DNA of 63,814 nt, filler included, from Phoronis australis (lineage: Eukaryota; Animalia; Phoronida), in NCBI GenBank assembly GCA_002633005.1. It is 5 parts of 5 records of this genome, joined end to end, with 100 filler letters (N's around TTAATTAATTAA, not from the genome) between each part and the next. Parts side by side here need not be neighbours in the genome. Positions count along the whole stretch, not along the records: positions 1 to 11,536 come from NMRA01001418.1; 4 more parts are not named here. One strand, 5' to 3'. Below the pieces are notes generated by a model. The model was not told the DNA's origin. It made no database searches and saw only the letters and a list, made by a program, of their open reading frames with translations. The translations under genes were made by a program, and so were the position numbers. Shown in pieces: positions 1 through 49,452 of the stretch (the first letter of the stretch is position 1; the number at the start of each line of letters is the position of its first letter).

Positions 1-883
1 CGTCTAGGCCTGGACGGCATTGGTTTAGTTGCTAAAAAACGAGTTCAGGAAGAATCAAAGCAATAATATGAAACGAAAAGTGCGGGGATGGGTTCCGTCA
101 TGGGAAATTAGGTTTTCTGGCCTGCGAGACAGTGAACAAGGGATGACGTTTGATTTTTGCCGGCGTTTACCTATGTACAGCTGGAAGAACCGCGTTCGTC
201 AGAGGATGTAATTGTAAGTCATGCAGATAAGCGCAAAAGCTAAAAAGTGAATGATTAACGACATATTTTCTACACTTCACAGCAGTTTAAAAGGCCTGGT
301 ATTTATTCAGGGGGAATTCCAAAGGACATTCTTATGAATTCCCGGCTCCCGGTGGCGACTCCCGAAAGAACAGGAATACGGTCTTCGGGATTGCCGCTCT
401 GAAGTCTGAAGGGTGACTTTTTCGCGGTCTATCTATTTTTCAAAAATGTAATTATTTATTGAAAATATAAGTATATGTGGCATTATTATATGTTAAAATT
501 TGATTTTAATTTAATACAAGCTACCGATGACCAAAACTACAAGATTTTTACGGATAGCAAAAAATGAAATTCAGGTTAGCAACAACTCAACTGAGGGCGT
601 ATAAACTAATGAATACACAGAAGTGTCCAGAGTTCATGCCCTAGCTCATTTCGGCGCCTGTGAACATGTGACAATGGTTCAGATACCATAGTTACTCTTC
701 TAATTTGTCTCTCTAGTGTTTTGACACACCTTATAAATAAATGTTCTATAAGAAGAATCGTTAACAAAATAGCAACTCATGTATATAGCGTGCACAACAC
801 AAGAGGAGGCTCAGCAAAGGCAGCCCCTACGGTAACACATTACCTAGGTGTGCACATGCACGGTGCTATTTGGGATTGTACTT

Positions 884-972
884 GGGGCAAGTGAATTTGT
901 TGTTCGGGCAAGTAAAAATTTCAACTACTTGCCCGAAGGGCAAGTGGCTTAAAAAGTTAATGTTGAGCCCTG
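884..972. mobile_element. Right terminus of a hAT-type DNA transposon; other end not in the window
   Basis: Ends in GTTAATGTTGAGCCCTG (reverse complement CAGGGCTCAACATTAAC). Preceded by clustered GGGCAAGT/ACTTGCCC subterminal motifs, a typical hAT end layout. Confidence 0.6.
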
Positions 973-1309
973 GGTCTCTACTTTCGTACTTGTCGAGTCA
1001 GCTAGACACCCTGTCCCTGGGACTAGTCAATAGATTTTGATATGAAGCACTTACCTAAAGCCTGGGTATATTTAACCTGAACTTACCTTTAAGGAAAACG
1101 CTCGAGACAAAATAAATGAACAGCGATGTCATTTTTCAAGTTAACGCTGCAGTTAGCAACACGGATTCTTCATTCAAATTGATGTCAGAATTTTAACGAT
1201 AACGCGGCCATTACCAACTTCCTCGTACCCAGAATGCACAGGTGCTTCCCTGCAAGTTCTTGGTACTTTCGTCGCTAGGAGTCGACAAGCATCAAACGCT
1301 GACCGGAGG

Positions 1310-1500
1310 TGGGCCTAACCTCATAGCATTTATTGTTGTTAGCACTTTGGGCGAGCAACCTAAATTTTTATATGATACTAGAAAATACACTTATAATTCA
1401 AATTAAAAAAGTTCCCACGTCTACACAAGCACATTTTTTGTAAATACTGTGTTTTGTTGCATGCAATATCATGCACATTCCTGCCACATGGCACTTGGTG
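1310..1500 (+). repeat. Dispersed repeat; diverged second copy at about 22170-22355
   Basis: Colinear shared blocks CTCATAGC, GCAACCTA, GTTCCCACGTCTACAC and ATGCACATTCCTGCCA at both sites. Confidence 0.7.
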
Positions 1501-2585
1501 GCAGTTTTCCATTTTCACGAAAGACGTCGCTCTAGTCGGCTGGCGACTAGTCCTCGCTGGTTCAAATCCCCTTTTGTCCACTGACGTCACACGCATGCTG
1601 GCGTGGAGGCCTTGAGAACTCGTAAACCGAGTTAACTACTGATTTAGCCTAGCCTATCAATACGGACCAAGTAGCATCAGACAAATCACAGATTTGCGGA
1701 TAATTCTATGTATCGTGACTTTCTTCAATCCTCAAAATCTAAGAATTAAGAATGTTTTTGTGGTATGTTACATAGTGAATTCTGAGGTTGCGGCATGACA
1801 AATAATTTTGCTCAGTTGAGTGTATTGGAACTGAGTCCTGCGTCCGCGGGTACTGGCGGGGGCCTACTGCGAATGGCCACGATACTTAAATATGCAGAGG
1901 TCTTTGTGTAAAATTTACGTTTGAGCTTCTCATGATTTACGGCAGTGATAAGACGTCTGCTGCCTGTGAGTTGAATGTGGCCGAGCATTCGGTTATTTTG
2001 TTTTTCATATTAAAATATTGAAAGTTATGTCGACCAAAATGGTAAGTCGGCGAGTCGCATTTGCGAAAGGTTTGCCTAAAATCCGTAAATAATTCCATTC
2101 AAGAACAGCACTGTCAGTTGGTATTAAATGTGTATGTATTTCAGGTTTTACAGTTCATCTCTGAATTGATTTATCTAAAATTTCATATAATTATTAAAAG
2201 AACTAAATTTAATTATAGGTCATTTTCTCAACTTCTTCTGTTTAGTTTGTTCTTTTAGGTTCTATGCCACTTTCAAAATTTTATTCGACAGTTACAAAAA
2301 GACTATTGCATATTGTAAAATTGATAAATTCATATGCTTTCAAAATATTTTAATATAGATATGCTTCCAAACTTAGAGATTTTGTGTGTTTTTATGACTA
2401 ATTTTGATGCGTTTGTTGCCTCTACTTGTTTTCTTAGATAGATATCACATCTGTACCCTTTGTATTTATGCTTTACACTAATGAAAGTACGTGATCAGTT
2501 GCTGAATGCATATTGCAAATGTTTGGCCACCTATGCTATTTGTATCCGGGTTGCACAACAAGTGAGTTTATGCTTTTTTTCATAG

Positions 2586-4860
2586 GTGAGGGCGTGCCTA
2601 AGGAAAACGTGTATGAAGCCCATCCCATGTTTCATGAGAAGCTTGTACAAGATGACTCCCCAACATCCACTCCAATTGGTGACAGAGTCAGCAACTCAGA
2701 AGCTATGGTATGTTCATTATGACTGGTAAAACAAGTTAGAACATTGGAATTTTATATGGTTTGTAATGTTGTCACAACTTTACAACTTAGTCTGCGTATA
2801 TCAGAAAAATTGAAGTTTATATTTCAAGGAATGTCAACCTCTCCTGTTAATAGGCCAACCACTGTTGTAGTAGTTTTCTGTAGAAAATTTAATGTTTATG
2901 GGAAAAGAAAATTGTGTCAATCTTCATGAGAAACAGTCACATTGACTATGAATGTCTTGACCTCTTTCAGAAAAAGATACTGTGATCATCAAATGTTAAA
3001 AATAAGTAGTTGTATGTGTCACACTAGTCCTTTGTGACAAATTTAACTCATTACCTTAATGAACAGGAGCAAATCAAGAACTAAGGTTCTGTCACTCACT
3101 CTGCAAAATTGATAAAACGTTTGACTTGAATAATCTGTCATGGAAAAATTTGATCGCTGTCCTCATGGACTCTTGTAATGTAATGCGAGGTGCGAAAGCT
3201 GGTTTAGAAACACTGATTCGGGAACGTAGAGCCCCCCATCTTCTTGATATTGATGGTGATTCATGTCATCATGTCCACAATTCTGCCAAAGCCTTTTGTG
3301 AGCCATTCGGGAAACACTGTGAGAAGATGCTGACCGACTTGTACAACGACTTCAAGTGGTCGACGTACAGTGCGAGTCTGCAAACAGAGATCTGCACTGC
3401 TCTGGGTATAAAACCGTCGGTGCCCAAGGAATGCGTTCCACATCGATGGCTGTCGCTGTTGCAAGTATGTATTGAGACTGTGCGATTATTTGATGCCTTG
3501 TCTGTCTATTATTTTTGTTTTCTTGATAAAGAAAACCAGAACGTTCACCAAGATATTATTGATGAGATTTTCACTAAGCGTGGCATTACGTCAGACACCA
3601 AGGAGGCAATTGAGGTGGTTCAAAGGAAGATTAGAAAGTCTCTAACTTCGTGTACTAAGGAAGGGAAGGATAGAAAGAGACGACTTTCAGACAAGATTTT
3701 TATTGTTCGTGAGAAGACGTCACTCAATCTGCATTTTTTTGCGTCATTTCTCACAATAATCCATGACTACATGAAATACTTTCAGCAGACTCAACCAAAA
3801 ATACATGAACTTCACAACAGACAAGAGGATCTTATGAAGGAGTATTTGGGATGTTTTATTAAATCAGAAATGCTGCAAGGTGGTGCCAAAAGTCTGCTTA
3901 AACGTGATTTGCATAACGAGGCAAATCATCTGACAAACTCTACTTGTTTTTACGGTGAAGTTGTGAAGAAACTACTCGCAGCTAAGAGAAAGGATGACTC
4001 CTTAAAGACGGAATTTCAAAAACTGGCTAGGAAGGCTTTTGTGGCTGGAGGAATCACACTTCAAAAGAAGATGCCTCTCAATAACACTGTTCTGAAATGT
4101 TTTAGTTGCCTAGATCCCTGTATGACAACCAATTCAGTCACCCTGGTGCAACTACTGAAGCTTGGAAAATTTTTTGAGCATCTCCTGAGTGTCGAGCAAA
4201 CACAGGATCTAGATCGAGAGTATTGACAGTTGGTGGAGTAGTCATCATGAGAAATTCCCTGTGCTAACTAGAGTTGCTAAATGTGCGCTGAGTGTCTTCC
4301 ATGGCCCTCTTGTCGAATCAGCCTTTAGCACGATGACTGAGATTGTTGACAAGTGCAACACAGCAATTGGTGTTGAGACATTCGCTGCTTATCAGACAAT
4401 TAAATTCTCTTTAAAAGCGGGAAAAAAGTCTGCTATTAATTACTTTATGAAGAAAGACCCAACACAAGATCCTGTTGACAAAAGACTTGTGAAAAATATG
4501 CGATGTGCTTGAAGGAAAAACCAAGAAAGGAAACAGCAAAACAGAGAGCATGGAGACAGGAAGCTGAAAGATATTGGTGTTGCAGTGAAACCACACCAGA
4601 CTAAGCGTCACTTTCACGAAAATGTAATGTCTGCAGCTAAGCAAGCGGTTAAAGACCACTGTTCATCTCAAGGTGACAAGCTTGCAGCAAAGCGAGTGAA
4701 GACAGGTTTGACTGTTAGTGACCAGACTGTCAATAGTGACATCCAAACTGACACCATGCTCCCTATTCCTCCCACTGGTAGTCGGGCATCTGTCAGTAAG
4801 AAGCAGTCGACCCTGAAAAACTTCTTTGGCAACAAGGGTACAAAGTCTAAGCTGAAAAAG
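2586..4860 (+). pseudogene. hAT transposase (spliced, disrupted)
   Basis: Candidate exon 2586-2707 (AG/GT, ...PIGDRVSNSEAM). ORF 3126-4226 has MDSCNVMRG, DGDSCHHVHN and HRWLS motifs. After a frameshift near 4220 comes the hATC-like segment IDSWW...KFPVLTRVAKCALSVFHGPLVESAFS. In-frame TGA at 4510-4512 (probably ex-TGG), then a basic tail to a GTGAGC donor at 4861. The N-terminal catalytic part appears deleted. Confidence 0.85.
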
Positions 4861-5103
4861 GTGAGCTTTGTGCTCTAAAATTTTGGAACTAAATATTAAG
4901 CAATTAAAAGTGCATGTCATCATTTGTATTAGTTGGAAGGTGGTGGACATCAATTTAGAGATTTTAAAAGTGATTATTGAGTTATGTAAGAACTATCTAA
5001 AGTGCAACAAAGCTCATGTTTACATTCCTTGTGTCTTGACTACACATTTTATTTCCTATAACACCTTAAGTAACACTAATGTAACACTGTACACTGTTCT
5101 CAG

Positions 5104-5891
5104 GTTGCTTCAGAATTGGTTGCACCTAATTCGCCAGGAGGGGATAGTTCTACCAGACCATCTCAGTGTTCGATATACAGTGCCCTGGATGATAAGTTGG
5201 CTAAAGGTTTGTATTGTTGGAAATATTCAAGAGGTTGGTGGTACATTTAGGCATAGTAAACATAGTTAAATTTAATTTTTATTTAATAGTAACCATCGTT
5301 GTTAATAATATTATTTGTTAATTTGATATTACGGCAATTGCCTATTATCTGTCTGACAAAGATCTTAAACAATACAATGTACCGTTTTCTATGTTTTCAG
5401 AGGGAAGAGAAATTGATAAAATGGTAGGAGATGGCAACTGCTTCTTTCGGGCCATTAGTAAGGCGACAGAAAAATCTCAGGAGGGCCATGCAAAGTGGAG
5501 AGGTGTCATCTGCGACGAAGTGATGAAAAATCCTATGTTGTTTCAAAAATTTGTGGACATGCCCATTTCGGAGCACGTAAAGAAAATGAGGAACCAGAAG
5601 GAGTGGGCGACCACTTGTGAAATCTATGGTGCTGCGAGTGCCCTTAAAGTTCCTGTCTATGTCTTATCACCACCGTCCGATTGTACAGGAATAGTCAGCA
5701 GTTACAGGTGGCTTATGTTCTCACCTAGTGGAAAGGTTGCTGAGCCAGTGGACATTCCGGCGAGTTATCTGACTCTTTGTCATACAAATGGCAACCACTT
5801 TGATATAGTTGTGTCTCTTCCATCACAGTCTGGATTACCACCCCCAAACCTGGATAATGTCATGTCTTGTGTTGATTTAAGAGATGAGTGA
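5104..5891 (+). CDS. OTU-family cysteine protease (deubiquitinase-like) domain; exons 5104-5206 and 5401-5891
   Basis: Spliced translation LDDKLAKEGREIDKMVGDGNCFFRAIS...EWATTCEIYGAA...HTNGNHFDIV contains the OTU Cys box and His box. No stops, canonical splice sites, matching phases. Confidence 0.88.
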
Positions 5892-6345
5892 ATGTCTTTG
5901 TGGATATTGCCATCCAATTTGCTTTTTGCTCATGTTCTGAAATATTGTTGAGTTGTAAGTGATCTGTTTTTTGCATGATTGTGTACATTAATATTTATGA
6001 TCCACATATTTGAAGTATTGATTTGGCATGACACTGGCAAAAATTATGATGTTTTTAAGTTATCGTGTTTTAAAGTTATGGAGGCTTTAATATATCAGTC
6101 ATAGTTGTAATATCATCTAGTATATGGTAAGATTTTGTGCATTGTGATCTAATTCATAATACAAGTTCACAACATGATGTACATCACGTGTCCAAATTAT
6201 TGTTGCTGTTTGGTGACTTAGACTAGCGCAATCCACCGCAAATGAGCATATTTTGCCAACTCAGCATAATTACAGGGTATCTTGTGTTTTTTTTTCGGTT
6301 TGTTGAGATATCCTCATTTGGATTGCAATATGTATTTGGGGGCGG

Positions 6346-6549
6346 CAGAGGCGGATCTACAGGGCGTTTAAACCCCCGTCCCGGGACGGGATATCAAAAA
6401 TGAAACTGAAAAAAAACGAAATCATCTACAAACACTAAAAAACATCTTACATGGGAGGGGGGGAACCCTCTCCAGACCTTGGGCGCTACGGGTCTCGGAT
6501 TCACGCGAGTCTTTAAACCCCCCTTATTGAAAACATAAATCTGCCACCG
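6346..6549. mobile_element. Small MITE of the GGCGGATC...GATCCGCC type inside the hAT subterminal region
   Basis: Imperfect TIRs CAGAGGCGGATCTA / TAAATCTGCCACCG (10 of 14). Similar single ends near 52070-52083 and 60413-60426. Confidence 0.5.
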
Positions 6550-7740
6550 GGCCGTAAAAATTTCCTCTTTTTTGTCATGAGTCATTCCAAGCCCTGACAT
6601 TCACATGACATCAAGTGTTGCAGTTTGCAACAATCATCTATTAATTTCAGTTTAATTGCAAAACAATGTCTCGGAACCATTCTAAAACATTCTGAAACTA
6701 CTAAGGTTCGCTGTAATCAAAGCATCATGGAGTTAGACATTGTAAGCAAGTGGATTTAAAAACCTGATTTGTTGAAATGACTAGTTGCAAAAACATCTCA
6801 CATTTTAAAATTGGGAGCTCAGGGTACTTCAAAGATTTTGAGTTGGGTCACTTAGCGCAAATTGCCGTTTTCTTGCGCGTTAGATGGGTTGGATTGTTAT
6901 CCAGGCAAAAGTCACTCACTGGCAATCCGCATTTTGAGAACAAGTTTTAATGTCTGCTATTCAGTGAAAAACAGGTTCCTGTTATGCAGTTGAAAACACT
7001 GCATGGTTCTCAAAGTAGGGGTCCCCTGTATGTGACTATTACCATTGTGTTTGCTCAGTGTTATGAACAACATGCTAGTGTGTCATTCTTGTGGTTAGGA
7101 TCTACATAATACAGCAGTGATTTTAGTCAACATTTCGGTCTTTTCGAACAGTTTTTCAAAATTACAATTTTGACTCTTATTGAGGGGGCCTCCTCGTGGC
7201 AAGAGATGGGCAGTGTGAATTGCTTCAGAACATTTGCACTGGCAGACACCCTCACGTTGACTCAAAATTAAAAACCGTGATGTCATTAATGTGTTCCTAG
7301 AAACATTGCACTCCATGGCATAGGCTTCAAATCGCACAACATGCCATGAAATTTGTCTAATCATTGGGAACTTTATTTTGCTGATGTATTGATCAGAAAT
7401 ATGGTTTAGGTTAGGGATAGACTGAAGTACTAAGTCTGGGCACTATAGTGATGTGGCGCACAACAGGGCTACCCCATTTTCATTGCAGACCCTTCCCTGA
7501 TAGAAACTCGTTCCGGTTTTGTGCTTGCCTAGCTCCCCTGGGCCCTGTTCCTGTCCCCTGTTCATGCAGTGCCTCCAGGTTGCCTCTCATCACAATCACA
7601 ATCATTGGTCGCCAACAATTTCTGTTGAATAATTCTGACTACACCAATGGTGCTGGGGAAATAGGTTATTAAAGACCCGACTACCATTCAAGTTGCACAC
7701 TCAGTGCCATGTGAAAGCATAGACCATTATGAAAGTAACA

Positions 7741-7980
7741 CCTGGGCCCTGAGTTTCAACTTTTTACTAGAGATTATTTTTATTATTTATGACAATTAAT
7801 GATCCCAGCATTGGAGCTAAGAGTTTGAGTCTGAGCTCGAGGTTTTGCTAGAAATCTTGAGTTTTTACTCAAGTTTTAGCTCGAATCTAGTGGTCCTTAA
7901 GTTCTATTTTGAACTTGGAAGGAAGTGGACTGGAAGTGACAAAAACAATTTCGAGTTCAATTTGGATTGAAAGCATCACT
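7741..7980 (+). repeat. Degenerate partial relative of the 21653-22059 MITE
   Basis: Starts CTGGGCCC...TTTTTACTAGAG and shares the CTCGA/TTTTTACTC-rich motifs. Confidence 0.4.
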
Positions 7981-9961
7981 CTAGAGGTGTATTCCCAAAA
8001 CATGATCTAATAATCCGTTTTCAGGGTTTTAAATCAATTCATCAAGACTGAGCTAGAACCTGTTTAGCCCAAAAAGCATTTAAATACAATGTGGAGAATA
8101 ATAAAGCATCTGTACTAAAACGAACCCATTTTAAGTTACTTGTCCACAAAGTGTACTATTTTTAAGCTGCTATTAACCCAACCTTTCTTTAGAACCGTCA
8201 TATAACAATTTAAGATTGGTCTCACTACCAACAATGTTGTTTTTGGCCTAAATAATAGCAAAAATCTAATAAAAATTGGTCTCATGGAGATTGGCGTATC
8301 CAGCAGTTGGATTTGGATCCTAGTGTCTGGTGTCAGTCTTCGCGTGTGTGCTCGTGGTTAGACTCTTGATCTCGTACTGTTCCTTACTGAGATTACATGT
8401 GGCATATTGGCTTCCGTTGAACGATAGGTTGTTATTGCTTAAGACCTGGTGCAATAACCATGGCTTTGAGCAATAACAAAGTTTGAGTTCTTCCAAGTCC
8501 ACTAAGGAACAAGTTGAGACAGGGATAGAAACATGGCTTGGAATTTTCTCTTTTAAGAGGATTTCATATTTTTTTTGTTTTTATTTCCTCTTGTTTGATT
8601 TCAAGCCTCTTTTTTATCATTACTTCGACTTCATTCATGCAAAGACTTTTATTTTTATTAATTAAATTTTACAACACGAAAAATATTTCTATCACACAAG
8701 CCTATTTGTGAAAACGATACATCATCTGGAAAACTTTCCTCTTTTAGTCTTTCCAATTCCTGTATGTAGTGGTAAGTTGTTCAGATCAAAATTTATTCTT
8801 TGTCACATACAATGCATTCATAGCACCTTTAAAGGAGTTTAATGCGAAGGAAATATTGAAGCCAGCAAACACCAGCTGATAAGCGCATTCTGAAATCAAC
8901 TATGGTGCTTGCTTGTGCTTTCCAAGATGTTCAACCCACATTGTTAGTTATAGGGATAGGGTTCATTCCACCATCCTTTGGCTTTCAGGGTACTCTCCTT
9001 AAACCATTCCAAGGGGGTACTCCCACAGGTTTATACAGTACATGAAGCTCAGCTGGGTGATTTCTTTCAAACAATTTCTCTTCAAAATGGTGCTTGAAAA
9101 AATCCCTACCAAAGAAAACTTTTTCACATGAATACAACGTGTTTCACTCTGGAAGTTAAAAACACTGCAAATGGTACCTTTTCCTACTGCAGAAGGGATT
9201 TTGTTACGATACCTGTATTTTCAAAATTTTGGGCACCAGAAGATTTTTGACAATAGGAATCTCTGAGCAGGCTTCTTCAAGCTTAATGAGTGAAAAAGAC
9301 AGCTGTCCAAAAATTACTACGAAATAATTCAGTTGTTAGCATTAACCCTTATAAAAAGATTGTGTATTTGTAACAATAGGCTACATTTTCATTGAACTCC
9401 AAACCTCAGATGACATACCTAATGTTTTTTAGCCACTGTCTAAGTGGGTGGAGATTCTTCTAGTACCAGATTATGCATAAAACTAAAGCTAAGGGCCCAT
9501 TTGGGTCATCTCTCAGGTATTTTTGTAACTACAAATTTATCCTCGGAACATCTAGAGCACCTCGGCTATTTTCCTATTTACAAATATTTCTTTTTTTCGT
9601 AGCCTCAACTATCCTCTCAGAGATTAAAGGCGAAGGCAACCTTTTTCCATGTCATTTTGAGCTAAAATAAGGTTGGTTGGTTATCCTAGACATATTTTTC
9701 ACTCAATTACAGCTTTTCGTAATTTCATTAATTACTCGTCCGCTATTCCGGAAGTGACATTTTAGGAGGCAAGCGTTTCCCGCCAATTGGTTTTGCGTTG
9801 AGTTTACTGTGCGAATCTGTTCTATTCTACTTCTGTTTTGGGCTATTTTTCACCAATTGTCGCCACCACTTTCCATCGGCGAGTATTCTGCGGCAAGATA
9901 GGTTAGTAGAGAACTCAACTACCTTGGATTTAGGGATTGTTTAGTGTGTTTTAAGCTGAAA

Positions 9962-10270
9962 ATGGCTGGAGTCGTGATCCGTATCACAGTGACAGTAGTG
10001 TGAGTGACGGAGACCTTGTTCACAGCAGTGGTGACGAGGAATTTTTTCACGGACATTCAGTGGGTGGGTACATGTTTGAGCCCGAGTAGAACGAGGCAGA
10101 GTACGCACAGGCACAGGCAGCTGTTGAGAGAAACGAGGCGGCTACTGAGGACAGACGTGGTGACACATCTTGGTGCAAATGCACTGTGTGCGTTGTTATA
10201 CCTACCTCAATGGAATGCTTGTGCTAATCAGAGTTCGACGAGGCCAAGCCACTACTGGACATGTTTAAAA
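9962..10270 (+). pseudogene. KolX / P2X7 cytoplasmic C-terminal (Cys-rich ballast)-like protein, N-terminal part
   Basis: Manual translation ...GYMFEPE*NEAE...RRGDTSWCKCTVCVVIPTSMECLC*SEFDE matches the YxFEP...WCxCxxCxxxPTxxECxCC signature. Stops at 10087-10089 and 10225-10227, and a frameshift just after ATG 9962. Confidence 0.8.
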
Positions 10271-11426
10271 GGACCTCCGGCATACCACGGACAGAGGAAC
10301 AACTGTCCCGCGACACACTCCCACTGGATGGTGACCTGAATACCCAAACTTCTTACACCGTGTCGTGTGACTCCCACGGCACCTTCTAAATAGATCCAAC
10401 ACTTTAGACAAGTCCACAATAAACTTATCAAAGTTTGGCTCGCCGATCTGTTCACTGGACGACGAACTGTCCTCTTCACTGGGTGTCGAACTGAGCCTGT
10501 TATCACTCGACCCACTACTCAATATCGCTGCAGGGCTGCTTAGAGGCTCTGGGGTGGAGAAAACAGCACAGGGCGAATCACTACTGGTTCCAGGAATTAC
10601 ACGCTCTGGGGTACGTTCGGAGGCACCGGGTGACAGTAGATGAAGTGCCTCCACTGGCTCCAGTCATTGTACTGGCCACAGCTCGCGAGACTTCTCGCTT
10701 CAAAAACGCACTTCTCGGGGGTGGCAACGGGGTACTGCCGGGAATCAACACAGACGGAATGGCATCCTTCTTCAGGCGTTGTTTCGCAGGGACCTTCATC
10801 AGTTCAGCGTNAGACAAGTCCACAATAAACTTATCAAAATTTGGCTCACCGATCTGTTCACTGGACGACGAACTGTCCTCTTCACTGGGTGTCGAACAGA
10901 GCCTGTAATCACTCCCACTACTCAATATCGCTGCGGAGCTGCTTAGAGGCTCTGGGGTGGAGAAAACAGCACAGAGCGAATCACTACTGGTTCCAGGAAT
11001 TGCACGCTCTGGGGTACGTTCGGAGGCACGGGTGACAGTAGATGAAGTGCCTCCACGGGCTCCAGTCACTGTACTGGCCACAGCTCGCGAGGCTTCTCGC
11101 TTCAAATACGCACTTCTCGAGGGTGGCGACGGGGCACTGCCGGGAATCAACACAGACGGAATGACAACCTTCTTCAGATACGCAGGGACCTTCATCAGTT
11201 CAGCGTACAAATCCCTTTCGTAATCGGAATGCAGAAAGTGCTTGCCACACACACGGTAATTCTCCACTGCTTTGTACGTTGCTTGGACGGGTAACGCTGC
11301 GTTATTCACACGAACGAGCTAAGTACGGCGAAGTGTGTCATCCATCGGAAAGCGATGCAAAGGTACTCCCAAAGCGCGCGTGAGCCGATAATTAGTATAT
11401 CCTGGTACGCAGCAACAGTGTGGCAT
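10265..11426 (-). pseudogene. THAP-domain transposase N-terminus (Kolobok type), truncated
   Basis: From ATG 11426: MPHCCCVPGYTN...LHRFP...RRT*LVRV...RVCGKHF...LKKDAIPSV, a THAP zinc finger with C>Y and W>TAG (11319-11321). Then a Ser-rich linker and KFIVDLSKVLDLFRRC. No DDE core present. Confidence 0.85.
10406..11206. repeat. Direct duplication of about 400 bp (10406-10810 and 10812-11206), probably an assembly overlap
   Basis: Both copies begin AGACAAGTCCAC and end GTTCAGCGT. They are highly similar and separated by a single N at 10811. Confidence 0.85.
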
Positions 11427-22059: not shown

Positions 22060-23996
22060 ATGTTCGTAATAAGCTACAGTGGATATTACATTACACAAAG
22101 CAATCACTGACCGTTCATCCCATTCAGCCGCATTGAATTTTGGACTAGTAGTTACTCCCCGTAGTCTGTGGGCCAAATCTCATAGCGTTTATCCTTGTGA
22201 GTACTTTGGATGGGGGGCAACCTAGTTTTTTTCTATGTTTCTAGACAATATACCTATAAATCAAATTCCAAACAGTTCCCACGTCTACACTTCCACATTT
22301 TTTAAACAAATGCGTTTTTGTTGCACGAAGTATTATGCACATTCCTGCCATTTGGTGGAGCTTTTCTAATGAATTGACCAATCAGAGAGCAAGATTGTAT
22401 TGTTGTGCGGAGTAATTTCAATATCGATGCTCCAATGGAGTGTGATGCCTGTATAAATTAAGGTTTATCAAACAGCACAAAATCGTAATGCCTGAACCTG
22501 AAAAAGCTTAGACAAGCATCCTGACAAAAGCTGATGGACTGTGGAACTCTGTAAACCAGTAGATTCATCAGAAGATGAGGTTTCTGTGCAGAAAACAGCT
22601 GCATCTCCTGCATACTGCAAGACCAAGTGTCAGACCAAAAATTGAAAGGACATAGGAAAATATACCAACGTTTCAAGACACAAGCAGCAGTACTAAAGCT
22701 GAAGCATATGAAAGTGATACAGATGTTACCCAAAATTTCCAAAGAATATCGATTAGACTTCCAAAATCTAGAACACCTATAGTAATAGCCGAGATTACCC
22801 GACCTAGGGAATCGAACCAGCGACCCCCATAAAACCGGCAAGCATGCTAACCGTTGAGGTAATAGGCAATTGCCCCTTACCGAGTGACTAACAGAGGCTC
22901 ATATACATGTACATGTATGATTCACCGGAAGCACTTTCACAACACACCCATTTTACCTGAACAAGATAACACGAGTGCATCAGTTGTTAGCAGGAAAATT
23001 ATATTATGGACCACCTTTCAAGAAAGATATAGAAGTAAGAACTTTATATCTTTAAAAAAACAGGTACTTGTTTTTGAAAGGTACATCTTGGTGTTTTCCA
23101 AGTGTTTCAGTATTATTACGAGTTATTTTTTTAATTTGTTCAGTCCCTTGGCTGCCTAGGCCTTAGGGAATCTACCTACCGCTGACACAGTAGATACGGT
23201 GATCATACTATAGGTACTCCGTGTGCCATATGCATTTCGGCAAATTATGCATCACACAGGTTAAACCATAAGTCATGTTGCTATAAATTTAGAAGTACCG
23301 CGTAGAGAGATGCCTCTGAAGAGGCCGTTAATTGTTCTCAATTTACACACATACTCCTGCAATCCTGTTTTTCGAACACTCCCTTGTTCATTTGCCAAAT
23401 CGACTCTGCTTGCGCCAGGGGATAACCATATTGCGTAATACTTTGAGTGTGATTTGAAGCACTTTAAGTCCAAAAAAATTGAGAAAGTTAAATGGAGTAG
23501 ATAGTTGCAAACAACATGCCCAAGTGGCCGTCATCCCTTGCCTTAATGCTGGGATAGGGGGAGCCTCTTCTTATTTTTTGCAAACGTTAATTACTTTGGT
23601 AGCTGCAATGGTAATTAAATTAAAGTGCCTTAGTGGCCAGCGTCCCTTTAGTAATTTGATCACAGTGGAAGCCACTGTCCATTTCGTCAAACGTTGATTA
23701 CCTTAAGAGTAAATCGATTGACTATGGTATGAGCAGCCATCTTACTTGCCGGATGTATACGTGCTATGTTTGCAAAATGTTGCTAGTAAATAGTTACGCC
23801 AAGGGTTATGTCAAGGAACACACATGTAGTCCAATGAAAATATACGGAGTTGGCAGTCCATTTACTATAGACTATGGTAACACCCTCAAGGTGACTTTTC
23901 ACCTATTGACTCTATACATAATGTCTGGCGCGTCCAGATTCACTTATACATGTAGACATACATGTAGTGATCGTAAAATCAATTTCTTATTTACAG

Positions 23997-39899: not shown

Positions 39900-42800
39900 T
39901 GTAGTGTTGTTACATTCGAATAGTATAAATGTAAGGAGTCACTTCCGGTACGTTGATCGTCTGACATACACAATACACGTTAGTTCCTGATTTAATACTT
40001 GTTTTATTAGATTTACTAACGATGCAACACTGGCGACGAGGATCGACAAGACCCCAATAACAACCGAGAAGTCACGGGGATACGTGTTATTCCTACATAA
40101 ACTGTCACGAACTGACATTTGCAGTATACTTGAGCTGTTCTCGCCCGTACGCGCTGTGTCCGTGCTGTTGATATGACATCCCTACCTGCCTTTCCCCCGT
40201 TTCTGGTACACGCCAATGAACAATCCGCGGGTAGTAGGTGGATGAAATGGCTAAACAAGTTTGAAAACATGCTTTTAGCCTTATACATTACTGACACTAA
40301 ACGTAAGAAAGCCCTACTACTACATTACATAGACGAAGAGGGGTTCGATATCTATGATAGCATGACAGACGCTCAACAGGGTGAAGAAGATGCCTATGAT
40401 ACTGTGAAACAAAGCTTCACTACTTACTTCACGCCTAAGCAAAACACTGCATATGAAACTTACAAATTCAGGCAAGCGGTGCAAGAACCATCAGAGACAA
40501 TCGACTCGTTTAACACTCGCTTGAGAACACTTGCAGCCACATGTGACTTTCATGACACAGATCGTGAGATGTTAACACAGATTCTTCATGGGTGTACCTC
40601 CACTCGACTCCTCCGTCGTAGCCTACGAGACAACATGACGCTGACACAAGCTCTTGACGAAGCGCACGCACTCGAACTCTCCGAACAACGTGCCAGTGAC
40701 ATTGAAAAGGGTGTCAACTCGCTAACATTGCACAAGCACAAATCACAGTCGTCCCATAAGTTCAAGAAACAGGACCAACACAGACCCAGGAAACAATTCA
40801 ATTCGCGAGTCCCGAAGCAAACGTCATCAGGGCAGACCCACACCAGTAACAACCACAACCCCAACAACAGCTGGCGAAAACAAAACCGAGTGGGTCGAAA
40901 CTGTGGTGGAGATTTTCCCCATCCTGCGAACACCATATGTCCTGCAAAAGGGAGATACTGTCTGAACTGTGGAAAAGTTGGTCATTTCGCACAAGTATGC
41001 AGATCAAAGCAAGTCAGCCAAATCCGTCGAGAAGACACTGCTGAGCACGACAACGATTCCGACTCCGAATACGTGTTCACTGCTGATACTGTCAAAGGCA
41101 ACGTCCCGAGGGTCAATATTTCACTCCTTGATACAACAGTAGAATTCATTGTAAATACGGGAGCTTCAGTGAATATTATTCCCGAGTCCATGCTACAGCA
41201 TTTTCCTGAGAGACCTACACTACAACCCCGCTCGACGAAGATTTACGCATACGCACAAGATGCATGCCTCGACGTAGTGGGCTCCTTCAAAACGGAAGTG
41301 GCGTATAATGGCTCTAAATGCATGGCGACCTTCTACCTGAATCGACGAGACCGTCCCACTTGCAGCCTACTTTGTGGACAAACCGCCCAAGCACTTGGTC
41401 TCATCCAGGGTGCCTTCCAGTCATCCATCCCGGAGAGTGAAGAGTATTCTCATCTGTTTTCTCCAGGCATTGGCAAACTCAAAGATGTCAAGATCAAGCT
41501 CCACATCGATGACACCATCCAACCGATCACTCAGAGGCATCGCCGCATTCCATTTCACGTGCGAAAAGATGTCGAACAAGAAATTGCACGACTGACCGAT
41601 CTCGACGTGATTGAGGAAGTCAACGGCCCCATCCCATGGATTAGCCCAGTTGTAGTAATACCCAAGAAAGAAGGCGTACGACTGTGTGTCGACATGAGAG
41701 AAGCCAATAAAGCGATTAAGCGAACCAAGCACATCATGCCGACTATTGATGACCTTGTCCATGACCTGAATGAGGCTACAGTCTTCAGCAAGTTAGACAT
41801 GTCAAGTGCCTACCATCAACTAGAGTTGGACGAAGAAAGTCGNNNNNNNNNNNNNNNNNNNNNNNNNNNNNNNNNNNNNNNNNNNNNNNNNNNNNNNNNN
41901 NNNNNNNNNNNNNNNNNNNNNNNNNNNNNNNNNNNNNNNNNNNNNNNNNNNNNNNNNNNNNNNNNNNNNNNNNNNNNNNNNNNNNNNNNNNNNNNNNNNN
42001 NNNNNNNNNNNNNNNNNNNNNNNNNNNNNNNNNNNNNNNNNNNNNNNNNNNNNNNNNNNNNNNNNNNNNNNNNNNNNNNNNNNNNNNNNNNNNNNNNNNN
42101 NNNNNNNNNNNNNNNNNNNNNNNNNNNNNNNNNNNNNNNNNNNNNNNNNNNNNNNNNNNNNNNNNNNNNNNNNNNNNNNNNNNNNNNNNNNNNNNNNNNN
42201 NNNNNNNNNNNNNNNNNNNNNNNNNNNNNNNNNNNNNNNNNNNNNNNNNNNNNNNNNNNNNNNNNNNNNNNNNNNNNNNNNNNNNNNNNNNNNNNNNNNN
42301 NNNNNNNNNNNNNNNNNNNNNNNNNNNNNNNNNNNNNNNNNNNNNNNNNNNNNNNNNNNNNNNNNNNNNNNNNNNNNNNNNNNNNNNNNNNNNNNNNNNN
42401 NNNNNNNNNNNNNNNNNNNNNNNNNNNNNNNNNNNNNNNNNNNNNNNNNNNNNNNNNNNNNNNNNNNNNNNNNNNNNNNNNNNNNNNNNNNNNNNNNNNN
42501 NNNNNNNNNNNNNNNNNNNNNNNNNNNNNNNNNNNNNNNNNNNNNNNNNNNNNNNNNNNNNNNNNNNNNNNNNNNNNNNNNNNNNNNNNNNNNNNNNNNN
42601 NNNNNNNNNNNNNNNNNNNNNNNNNNNNNNNNNNNNNNNNNNNNNNNNNNNNNNNNNNNNNNNNNNNNNNNNNNNNNNNNNNNNNNNNNNNNNNNNNNNN
42701 NNNNNNNNNNNNNNNNNNNNNNNNNNNNGCCATGGATTTTGCGGGTCCATTTCCTACGGGAGAATATCTTCTTGTAGTTATAGATGAATACAGCAGATAT

Positions 42801-44069
42801 CCAGAAGTAGAAATCGTCTCATCTACTTCAGCTAAGGCTGTGATTCCGAAACTCGAGATGATCTTTGCTCGACAAGGCAACCCTCACAAACTCAAGACCG
42901 ACAATTGACCGCCATTCAGCAGCCATGAGTTCTCAGCCTTCGCTCAACAGTTCGGAAGAAAGTTACGCCGTTGTGGCCAGAAGCAAATGGCGAAGCAAAG
43001 AGATTCATGCGAACTCTGAATAAGTACATACGAGCAGCAACAGCAGCCCAAGAGAATTGGAAGACGCAATTCCCCACGTTTCTTTCCCAGTATAGAGCGA
43101 CGCCTCACTCCTCTACCAAGACATCTCCGTTTGAAGCCCTCACTGGTCGAAAGATGAACATTGGTCTACCCACCATACTTCAGTTTCCCAACAACGTTTC
43201 AGTTCACAATCGCATCGTTGAGAATGACACCTCCAGCAAGGCCAAGATGAAGTCATATGCTGATAACCGCCGACATACAGAGACTTCGAATCTGCGACCA
43301 GGAGATCACGTGCTAGTGAAACAACCCAAGTTAAACAAAACAACACCACCGTTCCAACCGTCACCTTTCACTGTCACTGATAAGAAAGGCAGCATGATTA
43401 CAGCACAACGGGGACAACAGATGATAACCCGTAGTTCCTCACATTTCCGACAGATCCACGGTGACATCGACACCAACGAAGAAGACAAAGAAGATGAATC
43501 TACCCAGGTCGATACTACAACACCTACTACATCTACCAAGAAACTGTCTACATCTAGTCCCAGTTCCCCAAGTGATGAGATTCCAGCTACATCGCAAACC
43601 TCCAGACCCAATCGTGACCGACGTCCGCCAGACTATTTAAAGGACTATGTACTAACCCGTTAGTTATCGTCAATCCAATTGTGTGCGAGAGACTATTACA
43701 AACAGTGTTTATCACATAGACTTTAGAGTTAGTAATTAAGGTCTTGTTCTTACATGTTTAAGCTTACTCTAGCATTCAAGTAGCATGTAGTTGTTGACTT
43801 CTGTTTTCATTTAGTGTATCAGTTTGCACTAGATCTTAGGCGCCACTTAATTAACCTTTATTAGCAAGGTGTCACGTTCTGTTTAGATTTTCAGGAACTT
43901 GTATTGAGTAGGAATCTTCACTCTGTAGTATGGGAGGAGTGTAGTGTTGTTACATTCGAATAGTATAAATGTAAGGAGTCACTTCCGGTACGTGGATCGT
44001 CTGACATACACAATACATGTTAGTTCCTGGTTTAATACTTGTTTTATTAGATTAACTAACGATGCAACA
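39900..44069 (+). mobile_element. Ty3/Gypsy LTR retrotransposon (Mag-like)
   Basis: 130-bp TG...CA LTRs at 39900-40029 and 43940-44069 (4 mismatches). 5-bp TSD ATGAC, PBS TGGCGACGAGG at 40031, purine tract GGGAGGAG before the 3' LTR. Confidence 0.97.
40173..43663 (+). pseudogene. Gypsy gag-pol polyprotein, disrupted; assembly gap 41843-42728
   Basis: Gag with CLNCGKVGHFAQVC knuckle; protease FIVNTGAS (catalytic D>N); RT start PWISPVV...RLCVDMR...FSKLD; integrase MDFAGPF...TDN*PPF (TGA 42906-42908), then frameshift and WPEANGEAKRF...YRATPHSST. Confidence 0.95.
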
Positions 44070-45140
44070 ATGACATTTTTGTAAAATATATTTTTGGTGA
44101 CACAAGTCCGACGTGCAGGGACTTCATAGCTAATTCTGGACACAAATCGCTTAATATGGAAATCCACAAAAGCATTGGCATACCCATTATTCACCAGTGA
44201 TTGTCTTATGCGATCTACCACTTGATTGAACGATAGCCAGTTGGACGAGACCGAATACGCCCTCTTTAGGAAGTTGACCACAACGGCTACCTTATACCGC
44301 TCAGAGCACTCACCTTTATCAGTAGGCTTGTGGTAAACTGATGTAGAAAATTCAGATGGAGAATGGTTCACAAGAACGTCCAAAAATGGAATCTTGTCAT
44401 TTACAGGAAGCTCGTGGGTAAATTTCAATACAGAGTGACGTTCAAGTTCATCACGTACTGATAACAAGTCATCAAAGGCACAATAAACAAAAATATCATC
44501 TACATAACGTACATAGATAGGAATACCACCAATTTTCATTTATATGGCGATATGGTACTTTGGTTGTGCAGATGGTCAACATCTCTCTCATATGAGTTGG
44601 TGAATTATCGGGTGGCTTTAAATGTGCGTGACGGTATACACTATCCAAAATGATAGAATTGGTCTCATCCACCGGTACGTTTGTGAACAAAGACTCGTCA
44701 AGCGACATAGGTTGGTAATGGGGGAATAGCACTTGTGTGCGCAAAATGTCAATGAAATCCTCACGAGATTTAATGGAGTAACGGCTCTGAATGTACGGCT
44801 TTATGATGTTATCAAGATGCTTCTCTGTCTTGTACGTAGGCGTCAGGACTTGGGATATTATCGGCCGTAGAGGAACATCTTTTTGTGTATTTTGGGGATA
44901 CCATAGAGATAACCTTCGGAGTAATCACCTTCGATTTCGGAGAAAATGCGACGACCAGCCTCAGCATTTATAGCCCTAATGTGACGATTCAATTCACGTT
45001 TAAGGTCAATGAGGGTTGACCGACTAATGCTGGTAAACTTAAAAGGGTCACATATTAATAGACTAAGTTTATCGGAATAGTCATCTTTGTTTCAAATAAC
45101 ATACTGGGCAGACTTGTCTGCGCGCGAATAAAAATACAAT

Positions 45141-45416: not shown

Positions 45417-48163
45417 TTTTTTTTTCAAAGTGATATATATTTATTCATGGATACACAGAACATACAAAGAAATAATAACAAACCCAGAAACCGCGAAGCA
45501 TTATATCTGGGTTGTAAACAATCCATAAATGAAACTAATATACATAGAGGTATGTACAATTAAGTAGTATCTAAAATAAGTATTCCAATACTTAGATAGG
45601 CTATTACAGATATACAAAAACAAACATATGTATAGATTCATGTGGGGAAATCAGATGCAACAATATTGATAAACGGTACATAAAAATTTACTAACGTTGC
45701 TTAGGAGGAATTCGTTGAGAACGAGGTCAAGGTTAGGACTACCTTTCAATAATAATGTAACTCTAGTAGGGATATTATTACAAGAATTGAGAGCGTTAAC
45801 AATTGATTGATTTTCATTGAGTGCACGAAAGAGTGAGTCTCTCTGGTATTCGATGAGGGGACATTTGAAGAAAATATGAGGATACGATTGATGGACACCA
45901 CATTTACAGTTTGGAGAGACATTAATAAAGTTGTGCCTGAACTTGTCAGAGTTGAGGAAAAGGCCACATCTTGATCTGTACAATGCTATTTCGTTATCGC
46001 GTGTAAGGGAGAATTGAGTCAAGGGTGTTGAGTTATCAAAATTATGAAAAACAGTTCTAAAATTATTTTTTATACTCGTAAAAGAGTTGCTTTCCTTAAC
46101 AGAGACTGGAAGAGAATTCCAGTTGTTGATGCACATCATGACTGTAGACCTTCTGAATGCCTGACTGAACGACGGAGGAATTGCATATGGGGTGGAGGAT
46201 CTCAAATCACTACGATGGCCTTGTCTAGTATATAGATCAAATATTTTTTTGACAGACACGTTGTTGACATTGTTTATTACCTTGAAAGTAAATGTGGTCA
46301 TGTGAAGATTGCGTCGAGTAGACAGTTTGGGCCACTTGAGACTATTCAAAACCTTAACACTATTGGATCCCCTGTAAGCTCCGGTTATGAGTAAGGCGGC
46401 TTGATATTGTAACTTCTCCAAATGTTGGAGTGCACCCGTATTGGCAGACTGATATATAATATCACAATAATCAATGTGTGGAAGTACAAAGGACTTGAAC
46501 AAAACTTCTAAATGTGTAGAATTCAGATGACGAGAGACAAGCTTAAGTGGGTTAATTAGTTCCTGAGTTTTTTGTACGAGCTCCCGAACGTGAGGGGTGA
46601 ATGAGAGTTTTTCATCTAACAGTATACCTAGATGTCTGTGCGACTGTTTTCTAGGAATGATTTCATCATTAAGTTTAAGGTCATAAGACGGGTCAACAAG
46701 GAAGGGAGCATTAATAGATTTGGAGAAGGTGAGGTTAACGCTTTTTTCTGGTTTAAAATTCATTCTCCATTCTTGTGACCAATAGCTGAGTTTATTTAAG
46801 TCGTGTTGAAGATGCAAAGAACATTCAGGGCTGCTCCCTGGGAAGGGGTAAAAAAGCGCCGTGTCATCTGCATAAAGGTATGTGCTACATGACAGGTTAT
46901 CAGGAAGGTCATTAATATAAATCAAGAAGAGAAGAGGGCCCAATACGCTACCCTGCGGTACACCTGCGTTTACAAATCCAGGAGGAGATAAAGTGCAAAG
47001 TACGCCGTCGACTCGAACACTGTATGTTCTTTCGGAGAGATATGATGTGATCATGTTTAAAAGATTACCAGTAAAGCCATAGGATCGAAGTTTGTGAAGT
47101 AGAAGGTCGAGAGGGACACAGTCGAAAGCAGAAGCTATATCTAGAAAAATGGACCTGACACTCTCGCCCTTCTCAAAATGTAAATGAATCTCATGGACTA
47201 TTTCAACAAGTTGTGCTACGGTGCTGTTCCCACGCAAAAAACCGAATTGACGATGATAGATCAAGTTGTTTTGTTTGAGAAATGTAAGAATTCTTTGAGA
47301 AATGATCTTCTGGAAGATTTTGGACAGGGTGTTAAGTACAGTTATTGGGCGATAATTTGAAATTTCAGTTTTGGAGCTTTTTTGTGTATAGGGACCATAA
47401 TTCCATGTTTCCAAGAAGACGGATATATACCAAGCTGAAGAAGTTTGTTAAACAGAATGGCCAGGGGCATGGTAATTTCGTTGGCAATCATTTTGATCAT
47501 CTTGCTGGTTATTAAAGCTGTGCCATCATTCTTATTGGAGTCAATTTCATTGAGATATTTCCGGATATCAGTTTGATTAGCCAGGATGTCAGACAGTTGA
47601 TTGAGACAGCGTTCACGAAGAAAACGAAAGTTACCTACTTCAGTTGGTGTAATGTGGCTTTTGTTCGTGAAAAATTTGAGAAACAAATCACACTTGTCAC
47701 TACTACTTGAGGCTAGGTTACCATTATAGTTGATGACAGTATAGGAGGATTGTTGTTGACTGCCGCGTATTTTATTGATGATGTTCCAGTATTCTTTGGA
47801 GTTCTTGCTTGTGCTGTTAATTTGTTGAAAAAGCTTGTGTCGGTGATCAGCTTTGGCTTGATTTACTAAAGTTTCAACCAGACGTGGCTGCTCCTTATAT
47901 CTGTTGTGGATTATAGTGTTGTTAGATCTTCTGAAAGAGCTGTAAAGTCTGTTTCTTGTGCGGATTGCCCGTTTAACATTATTGTTGAACCAAGGTTGGC
48001 TGTTGTGTTTAATTATCTTTTCAGTTGATGGGATGTTGTTTTTTAAAATTTCATAGCGGGTACTAGTGAAGAGTGAAACAGTGTCATCAATGTCGCCAGT
48101 GTTCAATATGGAATCCCAGTCAGTGTTGGTGATATCCTGACGAAGTTTATCGGTGTCGACCAT
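45417..48163 (-). mobile_element. 5'-truncated non-LTR retrotransposon (CR1/L2 group), ORF2 with one frameshift
   Basis: ORFs 47342-48163 and 45651-47414 with NYRPIT, FLDIASAFD, GVPQGSVLGP, LYADDT and C-terminal CKCG...H...CP. The 3' UTR has an 8-bp stem (45481-45513), AATAAA (45440-45445) and an A9 tail. No AP-endonuclease domain. Confidence 0.93.
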
Positions 48164-49452
48164 AGCATGTAAAATCGGGTTATTGTTTTACAACAGCATT
48201 CTATTAGCAAACGCTGACTAAGCATACGCTCACACGGTCTCTGTGCCCGGTCAATTACATGTACCTTTATTGCATCTGAAGCCGGTGACGCAATGATTTA
48301 TTTTATTTTTTTCAATGTTGAAGTTAAGAATCGGAATACGGTGATCAAGAAATACTAGAGAGGTGCCGTGAAATTGCACAGGCAAGGGAACGTATGGATA
48401 GTTCTTTGGTCAGCCGGCATTAGTCGGACTCGCTGTCGACGACTGCCTGCCACAGAATCGGAGTTGTGTCACCATAGACAATAGATAGGGACTACCAACT
48501 CCCGTTAGAGCGCGTTGAGTATGTCAAGGACCAAGAGACATAAGCACTAACGATAAATGGGCGCTGCACACGCAGGATAGAAAACTTCCGGTTTTACGCA
48601 GCGGCCGTTCCCTCGTTTCAAGATTTGGTTAAGTAATGCGTCGACTTGCTTGATTTTTTTTTAAGTTTAAAAGACTTGTAAAATTAAAATGCGTATATTG
48701 TTCTCTGTCATGTAACCTTCAGAAGATGATTCAGACAGGTTATGAATTATTAACGCCAGAAACGTCTTCAGCTGATATTCCCATTTCCCATGTTTACACT
48801 TAAGTCGCATCAGCAGTTTTTTTGCTGCATATAGTATAAGTGTTTGTTTACATTCAGTACCGTACGAATCACCTCATAATCATAAGAACAAGTATTAACC
48901 AACAAAAATGAATTTGTAGCAATGTTACACAATAAATATTTGTGTAATTCACACAGCTTTGTTCCAGGGGGTAGAAAAGGCTCACCGACATTGACATATC
49001 ATTTGCAGAACCCTAGTGTCAAAAACTTGCTGTCACTAGTATCAAAGTGGGTATCTAGAATGACATAAGAAGGGCCCAACATGTCGCTCGGGAAATTGGG
49101 CAAATCGCAATTGTATGTGCACAGGCTACCCGAAATTTGAAGGGGCAAGGGATGTGGACCTTGCGTTCTGAAAATGTATTGGTGGACTAAAAAAGGGGAC
49201 GAGATTCCGCCGCTAGCGGTCCTAGTTACTCACAGTTCTTGCCGTTGCTGTTTCGTTNGGCAGGCCCATGCTTAAATCTGCCTATGTATCATAGGCCAAC
49301 AGTACATTGTAGGGCAACTTCTAAATATATTTATGATTATCATTGGTTCGATACATGGCACTCGTTGCTGTTAACAATCTTTATCCCATTCCGTTCGCAT
49401 CCTCGGAACAAAGTTCGAAAGTCAATAAAACATTGGTAAAGAAACTGACAAA

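What the first reader, a model, noticed from the sequence alone, without database searches (positions are those of the whole stretch)
4261..5891. hAT transposase apparently fused by splicing to an OTU deubiquitinase domain
Seen: the transposase tail frame reaches AAG|GTGAGC at 4860/4861 (phase 0), which fits the CAG acceptor at 5103. Exon 5104-5206 ends in phase 1 and joins exon 5401-5891, giving ...SKLKK-VASEL...LDDKLAK-EGREIDKMVGDGNCFFRA...GNHFD. All of this lies inside a hAT-like right terminus at 6596. Known: protease cargo occurs in other transposons (OTU in Helitrons and Ginger; Ulp1-type in MULE and CACTA). I do not recall it as a standard hAT feature. Inference: this hAT lineage encodes a transposase-OTU fusion that might remove ubiquitin from itself or from chromatin. 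Reading through the 4861 donor hits a stop at 4876-4878, so OTU-less and OTU-bearing isoforms are both possible.
Basis: partly seen in the sequence, partly recalled or inferred. Interest (0 to 1): 0.85.

Follow-up and report, generated by a model that had tools for sequence, protein, structure and literature searches.

The report
Dead hAT transposon carrying OTU deubiquitinase
This is a broken copy of an animal cut-and-paste jumping gene that carries, inside its right end, two exons for an intact-looking ubiquitin-removing enzyme; intact relatives likely splice it onto the transposase, a pairing known from other transposon groups and seen here in three other hAT proteins.

Summary
The exons, splice signals and OTU domain are real (PF02338 E 1e-9; OTUD1/3/5-like fold). 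The right terminus at 6596 is a mobile end. Intron 5207-5400 is spliced out in one RNA read and one contig of sister copies. The key junction 4860^5104 was not seen; no read covers 4155-5144. It rests on the best donor of 55 being in frame, and on the OTU exons having no usable start of their own. hAT+OTU single proteins exist elsewhere: P0158, and P0060/P0062 with another OTU type. Their OTUs have other origins (AU p=0.003 for P0158), which points to repeated capture. This OTU groups with a mollusc-wide host gene. OTU cargo is published for Ginger1 and Helitrons; my searches found no hAT case. The scan noted similar transposase-DUB fusions in other genomes. Verdict: new variant of a known kind; fusion likely (0.6); enzyme activity untested.

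The parts
2591..2719 (+). Weak relic of an N-terminal transposase exon (profile positions 100-123)
   Evidence: tblastn E 1.8e-5 with P0091; 24 bits against 13-22 in 3 shuffles; sense RNA depth 1.5-2.3 on 2385-2738
3105..4226 (+). hAT transposase core (profile 237-612); keeps the LMDS Asp, the SCHH motif and RW, lacks the first catalytic Asp; frame ends in TGA 4224-4226
   Evidence: 95 homologs, up to 44% identity; profile match E 4e-141; motifs
4200..4222 (+). Deletion with frameshift, about 19 residues missing
4213..4512 (+). hAT C-terminal dimerisation region with the VESAF Glu (4312-4326), ended by a premature TGA at 4510-4512
   Evidence: PF05699 E 2.6e-5; 69 of 82 homolog alignments run past the stop
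4513..4860 (+). Basic transposase tail with PIP-box-like motif QSTLKNFF (4804-4827), ending at the splice donor
   Evidence: the PIP-box consensus is recalled
4861..5103 (+). Predicted intron 1 (243 nt, GT..AG, GC 0.32); holds the read-through stop 4876-4878 and ATTAAA at 4903
   Evidence: not seen spliced
5104..5206 (+). Exon: linker plus the conserved helix that precedes the OTU in this clade; no in-frame ATG
   Evidence: RNA cover from 5145 on
5207..5400 (+). Intron 2 (194 nt, GT..AG), spliced out in sister-copy RNA
   Evidence: joint 5204>5399, skips 194
5401..5891 (+). OTU exon with catalytic Cys (DGNC) and His/Asp (GNHFD) motifs intact
   Evidence: (pLDDT 88.5)
6346..6555 (.). Nested small inverted-repeat element, absent from some sister copies
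   Evidence: 2 reads in X2 join 6345 to 6556 (table 5c); imperfect inverted ends
6556..6596 (-). Right terminus of the element (reads CAGGGCT... inward), shared with high-copy short elements
   Evidence: hundreds of reads break at 6596 into mixed flanks and at 6549-6561 into other interiors

Best explanation
This is a decayed, 5'-incomplete copy of an animal hAT DNA transposon whose family likely captured an OTU protease domain and likely spliced it onto the end of its transposase. Shown: the two OTU exons lie on the transposase strand between its tail and the right terminus, the second intron is spliced in sister copies, and this copy's transposase is broken before the junction. Inferred: the ancestral transposase ended just after a PIP-box-like motif, as 7 of 95 homologs still do; a donor 11 codons behind that motif bypasses the old stop and adds about 197 residues of linker and OTU; read-through to the stop at 4876 would give the plain transposase. 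Inferred and untested: tethered to the transposase, the OTU would remove ubiquitin in cis, most likely degradative chains from the transposase itself, or else ubiquitin on PCNA or chromatin at the cut and target sites. The domain most likely came from a host gene found across molluscs, independently of the OTUs on other hAT proteins.
For: Donor is best of 55, in frame. Exons 5104-5206 and 5401-5891 have no ATG before the Met four residues ahead of DGNC, so they need an upstream exon, and the transposase tail is the only gene-like frame found upstream. Exon 5104-5206 scores as OTU-clade sequence, 0 of 200 shuffles reach it. Intron 2 is spliced. Interior reads of X1 and X2 over the transposase core and the OTU side nearly all lie in one direction, which in most stranded libraries means the sense strand. 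Two reads tie the 3' region straight to the terminal 41 bp. The OTU keeps its catalytic motifs and fold while the transposase is broken. One-protein hAT+OTU fusions exist: P0158, a single 957-aa protein (PF05699 E 3e-7 + PF02338 E 2.5e-14); P0060, an NCBI gene model of Babylonia areolata, and P0062, a Trinity transcript. P0060 and P0062 lie on the same side as the window of a 99-supported branch in the transposase tree. Six proteins of another transposase-like family end in the same OTU clade.
Against: No read or contig shows 4860^5104, and 4155-5144 has zero depth in all 4 runs although the core has depth 1-4 in two of them. Two of the three records that reach exon 5104-5206 (an X2 read, the X4 contig) begin to match only at 5145; the contig has 45 other letters before that. 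The two nearest other transposases, P0034 and P0036, stop at their PIP-like motif. 93 of 95 homologs have no OTU, and 0 of 31 metagenome loci do, although many of these proteins come from short unnamed contigs where spliced exons could be missed, and only 3 of the 15 loci that reach the transposase end hold over 1.2 kb behind it. No intact copy, left TIR or target duplication is available. A search with the C-terminal half of P0158 found no second hAT+OTU protein among its 5 hits.
Confidence: 0.6

Rival explanations
1. The OTU exons are cargo inside the element, as a second gene or a captured piece of the host gene, with their own upstream exon or none, and are not joined to the transposase.
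For: Junction 1 unseen; zero RNA depth on 4155-5144; sister records diverge before 5145. The PIP-like motif marks a complete transposase end before the donor. The OTU's nearest relatives are stand-alone mollusc genes at 37-46% identity.
Against: No start codon or alternative upstream exon is visible between 4878 and 5104; the strongest donor sits in frame at the very end of the transposase. The linker is low-complexity and may simply be too diverged for reads to be laid. Fused architecture recurs.
Confidence: 0.25
2. The OTU and the 6596 terminus belong to a different small element that happens to abut a transposase remnant, so the arrangement is a one-off chimera.
For: The terminal 41-48 bp are shared by many short elements with other interiors. 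No left end or target duplication ties the parts together. The region 1500-2200 is a patchwork of other repeats.
Against: No terminus or repeat signal between 4878 and 5104. Transposase and OTU reads share strand, low depth and the same runs, X1 and X2. Related transposase loci L019 and L020 have a CAGGGCT-type right-end motif shortly after the gene (7-nt matches only).
Confidence: 0.1
3. The transposon-borne OTU is the older form and the mollusc gene was domesticated from it, so the element did not take the domain from the host.
For: With distant OTUs included, the LG+G4 tree attaches them inside the window's group, which would make it basal. Same-clade OTUs sit on several transposon types.
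Against: That attachment is flagged as long branches meeting. The mixture-model quick tree nests the window's 4-row group (96) beside caenogastropod genes (88). Host-type genes have short branches, largely group by mollusc lineage and occur in chiton, gastropods and bivalves.
Confidence: 0.3

Closest known systems
Ginger1 DNA transposons (Bao et al. 2010, PMC2836005; passages read)
   Same: DDE transposase with a C-terminal OTU (pfam02338) or Ulp1 domain, with introns, in Hydra, Aplysia and aphid; the authors propose a role for the ubiquitin pathway in transposition.
   Different: Ginger1 has a Gypsy-integrase-like enzyme; here it is hAT (PF05699). 'hAT' occurs 0 times in that paper's main text.
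Helitron/Helentron OTU and VTD deubiquitinases (Erven et al. 2022, PMC9741609, passages; Arkhipova and Yushenova 2019, PMC6431247, passages)
   Same: Transposon-borne DUB domains; the VTDs were shown active, and protection of transposition proteins from the proteasome was proposed.
   Different: Rolling-circle elements. Erven et al. state that transposon OTU domains had not been tested for activity. No hAT is mentioned.
Human OTUD1, OTUD3, OTUD5/DUBA catalytic domains (PDB 4BOP, 4BOU, 3TMP)
   Same: Best sequence-profile (E 1.5e-22 to 4e-18) and fold matches (E about 1e-9, TM 0.67-0.68).
   Different: 18-24% identity, so linkage specificity cannot be carried over.
Uncharacterised mollusc OTU gene (e.g. 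LOC133197408 Saccostrea, C0Q70_12168 Pomacea, XP_046339917.1 Haliotis)
   Same: Nearest sequences, 37-46%; share the pre-OTU helix, WATT/Q.EIY, LCHTNGNH and the PP.L...VDL end.
   Different: 377-586 aa stand-alone proteins with no transposase match; the window's domain has a long branch and lacks their CNC motif.
hAT+OTU database proteins P0158 (Logan), P0060 (XP_076440671.1, Babylonia areolata), P0062 (EukProt transcript)
   Same: hAT transposase and OTU-type domain in one chain with catalytic motifs present.
   Different: P0158: distant transposase (25%) and an OTU that does not group with the window's (AU p 0.0026; group named after an earlier tree). P0060/P0062: related transposase, but a very different OTU type (I recall it as vertnin-like; not tested) placed before, not after, the terminal motif.

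Membership tests
hAT superfamily | C-terminal hAT dimerisation domain (PF05699) | tested here: met
   24.3 bits against cut-off 21.4
hAT superfamily | DDE triad with C/DxxH and RW motifs (definition recalled) | tested here: inconclusive
   Second Asp, SCHH, RW and Glu present; the first Asp falls in a deleted part of this copy; homologs P0060 and P0158 have it
hAT superfamily | N-terminal BED zinc finger | tested here: not met
   Profile positions 1-99 not found in 973-3260 of this copy; weak zf-BED hits in homologs P0099, P0102
hAT superfamily | Short terminal inverted repeats at both ends | tested here: inconclusive
   Right end at 6596 supported; no matching left end in 1-3100, best 10 of 16; the window starts 3.1 kb before the core
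hAT superfamily | 8-bp target site duplication | not testable with these tools
   No left end; the 8 bases after 6596 do not recur upstream; no genome held
Autonomous hAT element | Intact transposase frame | tested here: not met
   Deletion, frameshift and premature TGA
OTU deubiquitinases | OTU profile and fold | tested here: met
OTU deubiquitinases | Catalytic Cys, His and Asp/Asn in the DGNC and H-x-D motifs | tested here: met
   In sequence; geometry in the model not measured
OTU deubiquitinases | Cleaves ubiquitin or ubiquitin-like conjugates | not testable with these tools
   needs a bench assay
Transposase-protease fusions (Ginger1 type) | Protease in the same polypeptide as the transposase | tested here: inconclusive
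   Junction 2 seen, junction 1 not; met for P0158, P0060, P0062 as predicted proteins
Ginger1 | Gypsy-integrase-like transposase with GPY/F motif | tested here: not met
   The transposase is hAT by profile and homologs

The most novel reading that the evidence does not exclude
hAT transposases have an exchangeable deubiquitinase slot beside a PCNA-binding-like tail motif, filled at least three separate times (a mollusc host OTU here, another transposon-type OTU in P0158, a third OTU type in P0060/P0062), and in this family a splice-versus-polyadenylation choice switches between a plain transposase and one that strips ubiquitin from itself or from PCNA at replication and repair sites.
Probability: 0.3. 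Interest if true: 0.75.

Novelty: new variant of a known kind. Interest (0 to 1): 0.5.

Why it matters
Deubiquitinase and SUMO-protease domains recur on Ginger1, Helitron and Mutator elements, which suggests that hosts restrain transposases through ubiquitin. The function is open: as of Erven et al. 2022 no transposon OTU had been assayed. hAT is the superfamily with working tools such as Tol2 and Hermes (recalled), so a hAT with a natural, optional OTU module makes the question testable: with and without the domain, and against a catalytic Cys mutant. Repeated independent capture would argue for selection on the activity. The window's copy is dead; P0158 or P0060 are the better starting points.

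Tried and rejected
No genome is held, so genomic copies, a consensus, the left TIR and target duplications could not be collected. No RNA holder was listed; four same-label runs were laid, with about 18-19% of each raw run read. X3 gave 0 reads on 4711-5610, which is no test. Repeat search of 1-9000 showed no TIR pair. The CAGGGCT-type end at 972 faces the same way as 6596 and is not its partner. Viral contigs gave 4 weak OTU loci and no hAT. Reading intron 2 through as one ORF (5322-5891) scores 14 bits below the spliced form, so it was rejected. A single origin for the window's OTU and P0158's was rejected; the same test was not run for P0060/P0062, whose domain aligns over only 39 columns. 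The first OTU tree is a quick tree, as the careful search did not finish, and P0170 was dropped for lack of the motif. Paper searches for a hAT-OTU fusion listed none; I saw listings only, except passages of PMC2836005, PMC9741609 and PMC6431247. Repbase Reports and most subscription journals are not in the library, and no supplements were read, so a Repbase entry could exist. Searches for PIP-box or ubiquitination work on hAT transposases gave nothing usable. An Atlas search did not name the other OTU-bearing transposase family (best named lead DUF7869 on 12% of members). No complex prediction was run.

Full report
Observation. The window is repeat-rich animal-type DNA of about 39% GC; no genome is held for it. 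Joining 4513-4860, 5104-5206 and 5401-5891 gives one open frame ending in an OTU domain. The OTU passes Pfam's cut-off (E 1e-9). Its model (pLDDT 88.5) matches OTUD5, OTUD1 and OTUD3 best. The motifs DGNC and HTNGNHFD are intact.

The second junction is shown. An OTU profile from 54 relatives, without the window, scores the spliced form at 190.0 bits, the unspliced ORF at 176.1 and the last exon alone at 172.8; 0 of 200 shuffles of the middle exon reach 190. One read in X1 and one contig in X4 skip exactly 5207-5400. Both are under 90% alike, so they come from sister copies, and X4 is RNA only by a guess.

The first junction is only inferred. For it: the donor at 4861 is the best of 55 GT sites in 4230-5080 and is in phase 0; the acceptor has a branch-like site; the middle exon has no in-frame ATG; exons are 45-47% GC against 27-32% in the introns. 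Against it: no read lies on 4155-5144 in four runs, while the core has depth 1-4 in X1 and X2. Two of three records entering the middle exon match only from 5145. The 30 loose letters shown for the X4 contig read without a stop in the OTU frame (my reading by hand), which fits a diverged linker as well as another upstream exon.

A profile of the family matches positions 237-612 at 3105-4235 and 624-794 at 4216-4728 in another frame. About 19 residues are missing at the break, and 69 of 82 homolog alignments run past the TGA at 4510-4512. Upstream only a weak relic at 2591-2719 remains; the BED finger and the first catalytic Asp are absent. Any fusion protein must come from another copy.

The element's end. 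Hundreds of reads break at 6596 into mixed flanks, and at 6549-6561 into other interiors, so the last 41-48 bases are a terminus shared with abundant short elements. The stretch 6346-6555 is a nested insert: two reads join 6345 to 6556. No left end or target duplication was found.

Relatives. Of 95 transposase homologs (identity up to 44%), 2 carry an OTU-type tail: P0060, an NCBI model from Babylonia areolata, and P0062, a Trinity transcript filed under Piridium sociabile; I recall that organism as a whelk parasite, so the transcript may be the host's. Seven of the 95 end in a strict PIP-box-like motif 1-11 residues from the stop, against 2 hits in 64,145 residues elsewhere (consensus recalled). 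The window has that motif at 4804-4827, 11 codons before the donor, which marks the old C-terminus. Among the best 150 OTU hits in the representative library, 13 of the 143 new proteins are 700 aa or longer. One, P0158, is a full hAT transposase with a C-terminal OTU; six belong to another transposase-like family; three have Helitron helicase domains and one is an LTR-type polyprotein. None of 31 metagenome loci has an OTU, but only 3 of the 15 that reach the transposase end hold more than 1.2 kb behind it.

Origin. The nearest named OTUs are stand-alone mollusc proteins, from chiton, gastropods and bivalves, with more distant ones in a cephalopod. In an 89-row quick tree the window groups with three unnamed short ORFs (P0121, P0128, P0129; support 96) beside caenogastropod genes (88), apart from P0158 and the other transposase-borne OTUs (96). 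A 33-row tree rejects a clade of the window's group with P0158 (p-AU 0.0026; the group was named after the first tree), but leaves the root unsure. In the transposase tree the window, P0034, P0036, P0060, P0062, P0158 and P0264 lie outside a 29-row clade (99), with P0158 and P0264 far off. I read this as at least three separate OTU gains by hAT elements, the one here most likely from the host gene.

Mechanism. Shown: anatomy, intact catalytic motifs, splicing of intron 2, decay of this copy. Inferred: splicing at 4861 adds the OTU behind the PIP-like motif; read-through to TAA 4876-4878 with ATTAAA at 4903 would give the short form (weak in AT-rich DNA). Untested: that the domain is active and what it cuts. 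Removing degradative chains from the transposase is my first choice, following the proposal for Helitron DUBs (PMC9741609, passages). Ubiquitin on PCNA or chromatin is the second, because of the adjacent motif and the repair-linked proposal for Ginger1 (PMC2836005, passages).

Comparison and novelty. It works like Ginger1 and Helentron DUB fusions but is a hAT by its dimerisation domain and homologs; TIR pair and target duplication could not be tested. Seven paper searches listed no hAT-OTU report, in a library without Repbase Reports. Earlier notes of this scan describe kindred transposase-DUB fusions in other genomes; they are leads, not support, and look-ups by sequence and place gave nothing. 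Verdict: new variant of a known kind, interest 0.5.

Noticed in passing
P0162, P0163, P0171, P0177, P0182, P0190: Six 1011-1148 aa proteins of an unnamed DDE-like transposase family (DF.ENY, FSD, HGK.P.DG motifs) end in an OTU of the same broad clade; their OTUs group with that of the hAT protein P0158, hinting at OTU exchange between transposon superfamilies.
   Followed up: partly
P0158 (Logan, 957 aa): Apparently intact single-ORF hAT transposase with C-terminal OTU; no second example among the 5 hits. The best candidate for bench work.
   Followed up: partly
P0021 (ENA, 393 aa): Same-clade OTU behind an N-terminal domain with a KGYHVY motif that I recall as HIRAN-like; no Pfam hit for that part.
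   Followed up: no
P0001-P0020, P0117-P0143: A conserved, mostly uncharacterised mollusc OTU gene with a long low-complexity N-terminus.
   Followed up: partly
window 900-972: Right-type end of another hAT-like short element (CAGGGCT... on the minus strand), same orientation as 6596; a similar end lies at 16669.
   Followed up: no
window 410-587 and 22168-22350: A 180-bp repeat at 79% identity.
   Followed up: no
window 3213-3232: RNA reads of sister copies carry single-base insertions here (7 of 7 at 3213 in X2), so the transcribed copies may be broken too.
   Followed up: no
window 6569-6596: Six reads run off the terminus, through 13 other letters, and back into 6569: tandem or rearranged ends in some copies.
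   Followed up: no
window 10265-11318 (-): Duplicated ORF pieces with a CGKHF motif that looks like a THAP finger (recalled; not scanned).
   Followed up: no
window 40134-43663 (+), 43979-44924 (-), 45651-48187 (-): By eye: a Gypsy-like gag-pol across an N gap, Penelope-like RT pieces and a LINE-like RT with a frame break; not scanned.
   Followed up: no
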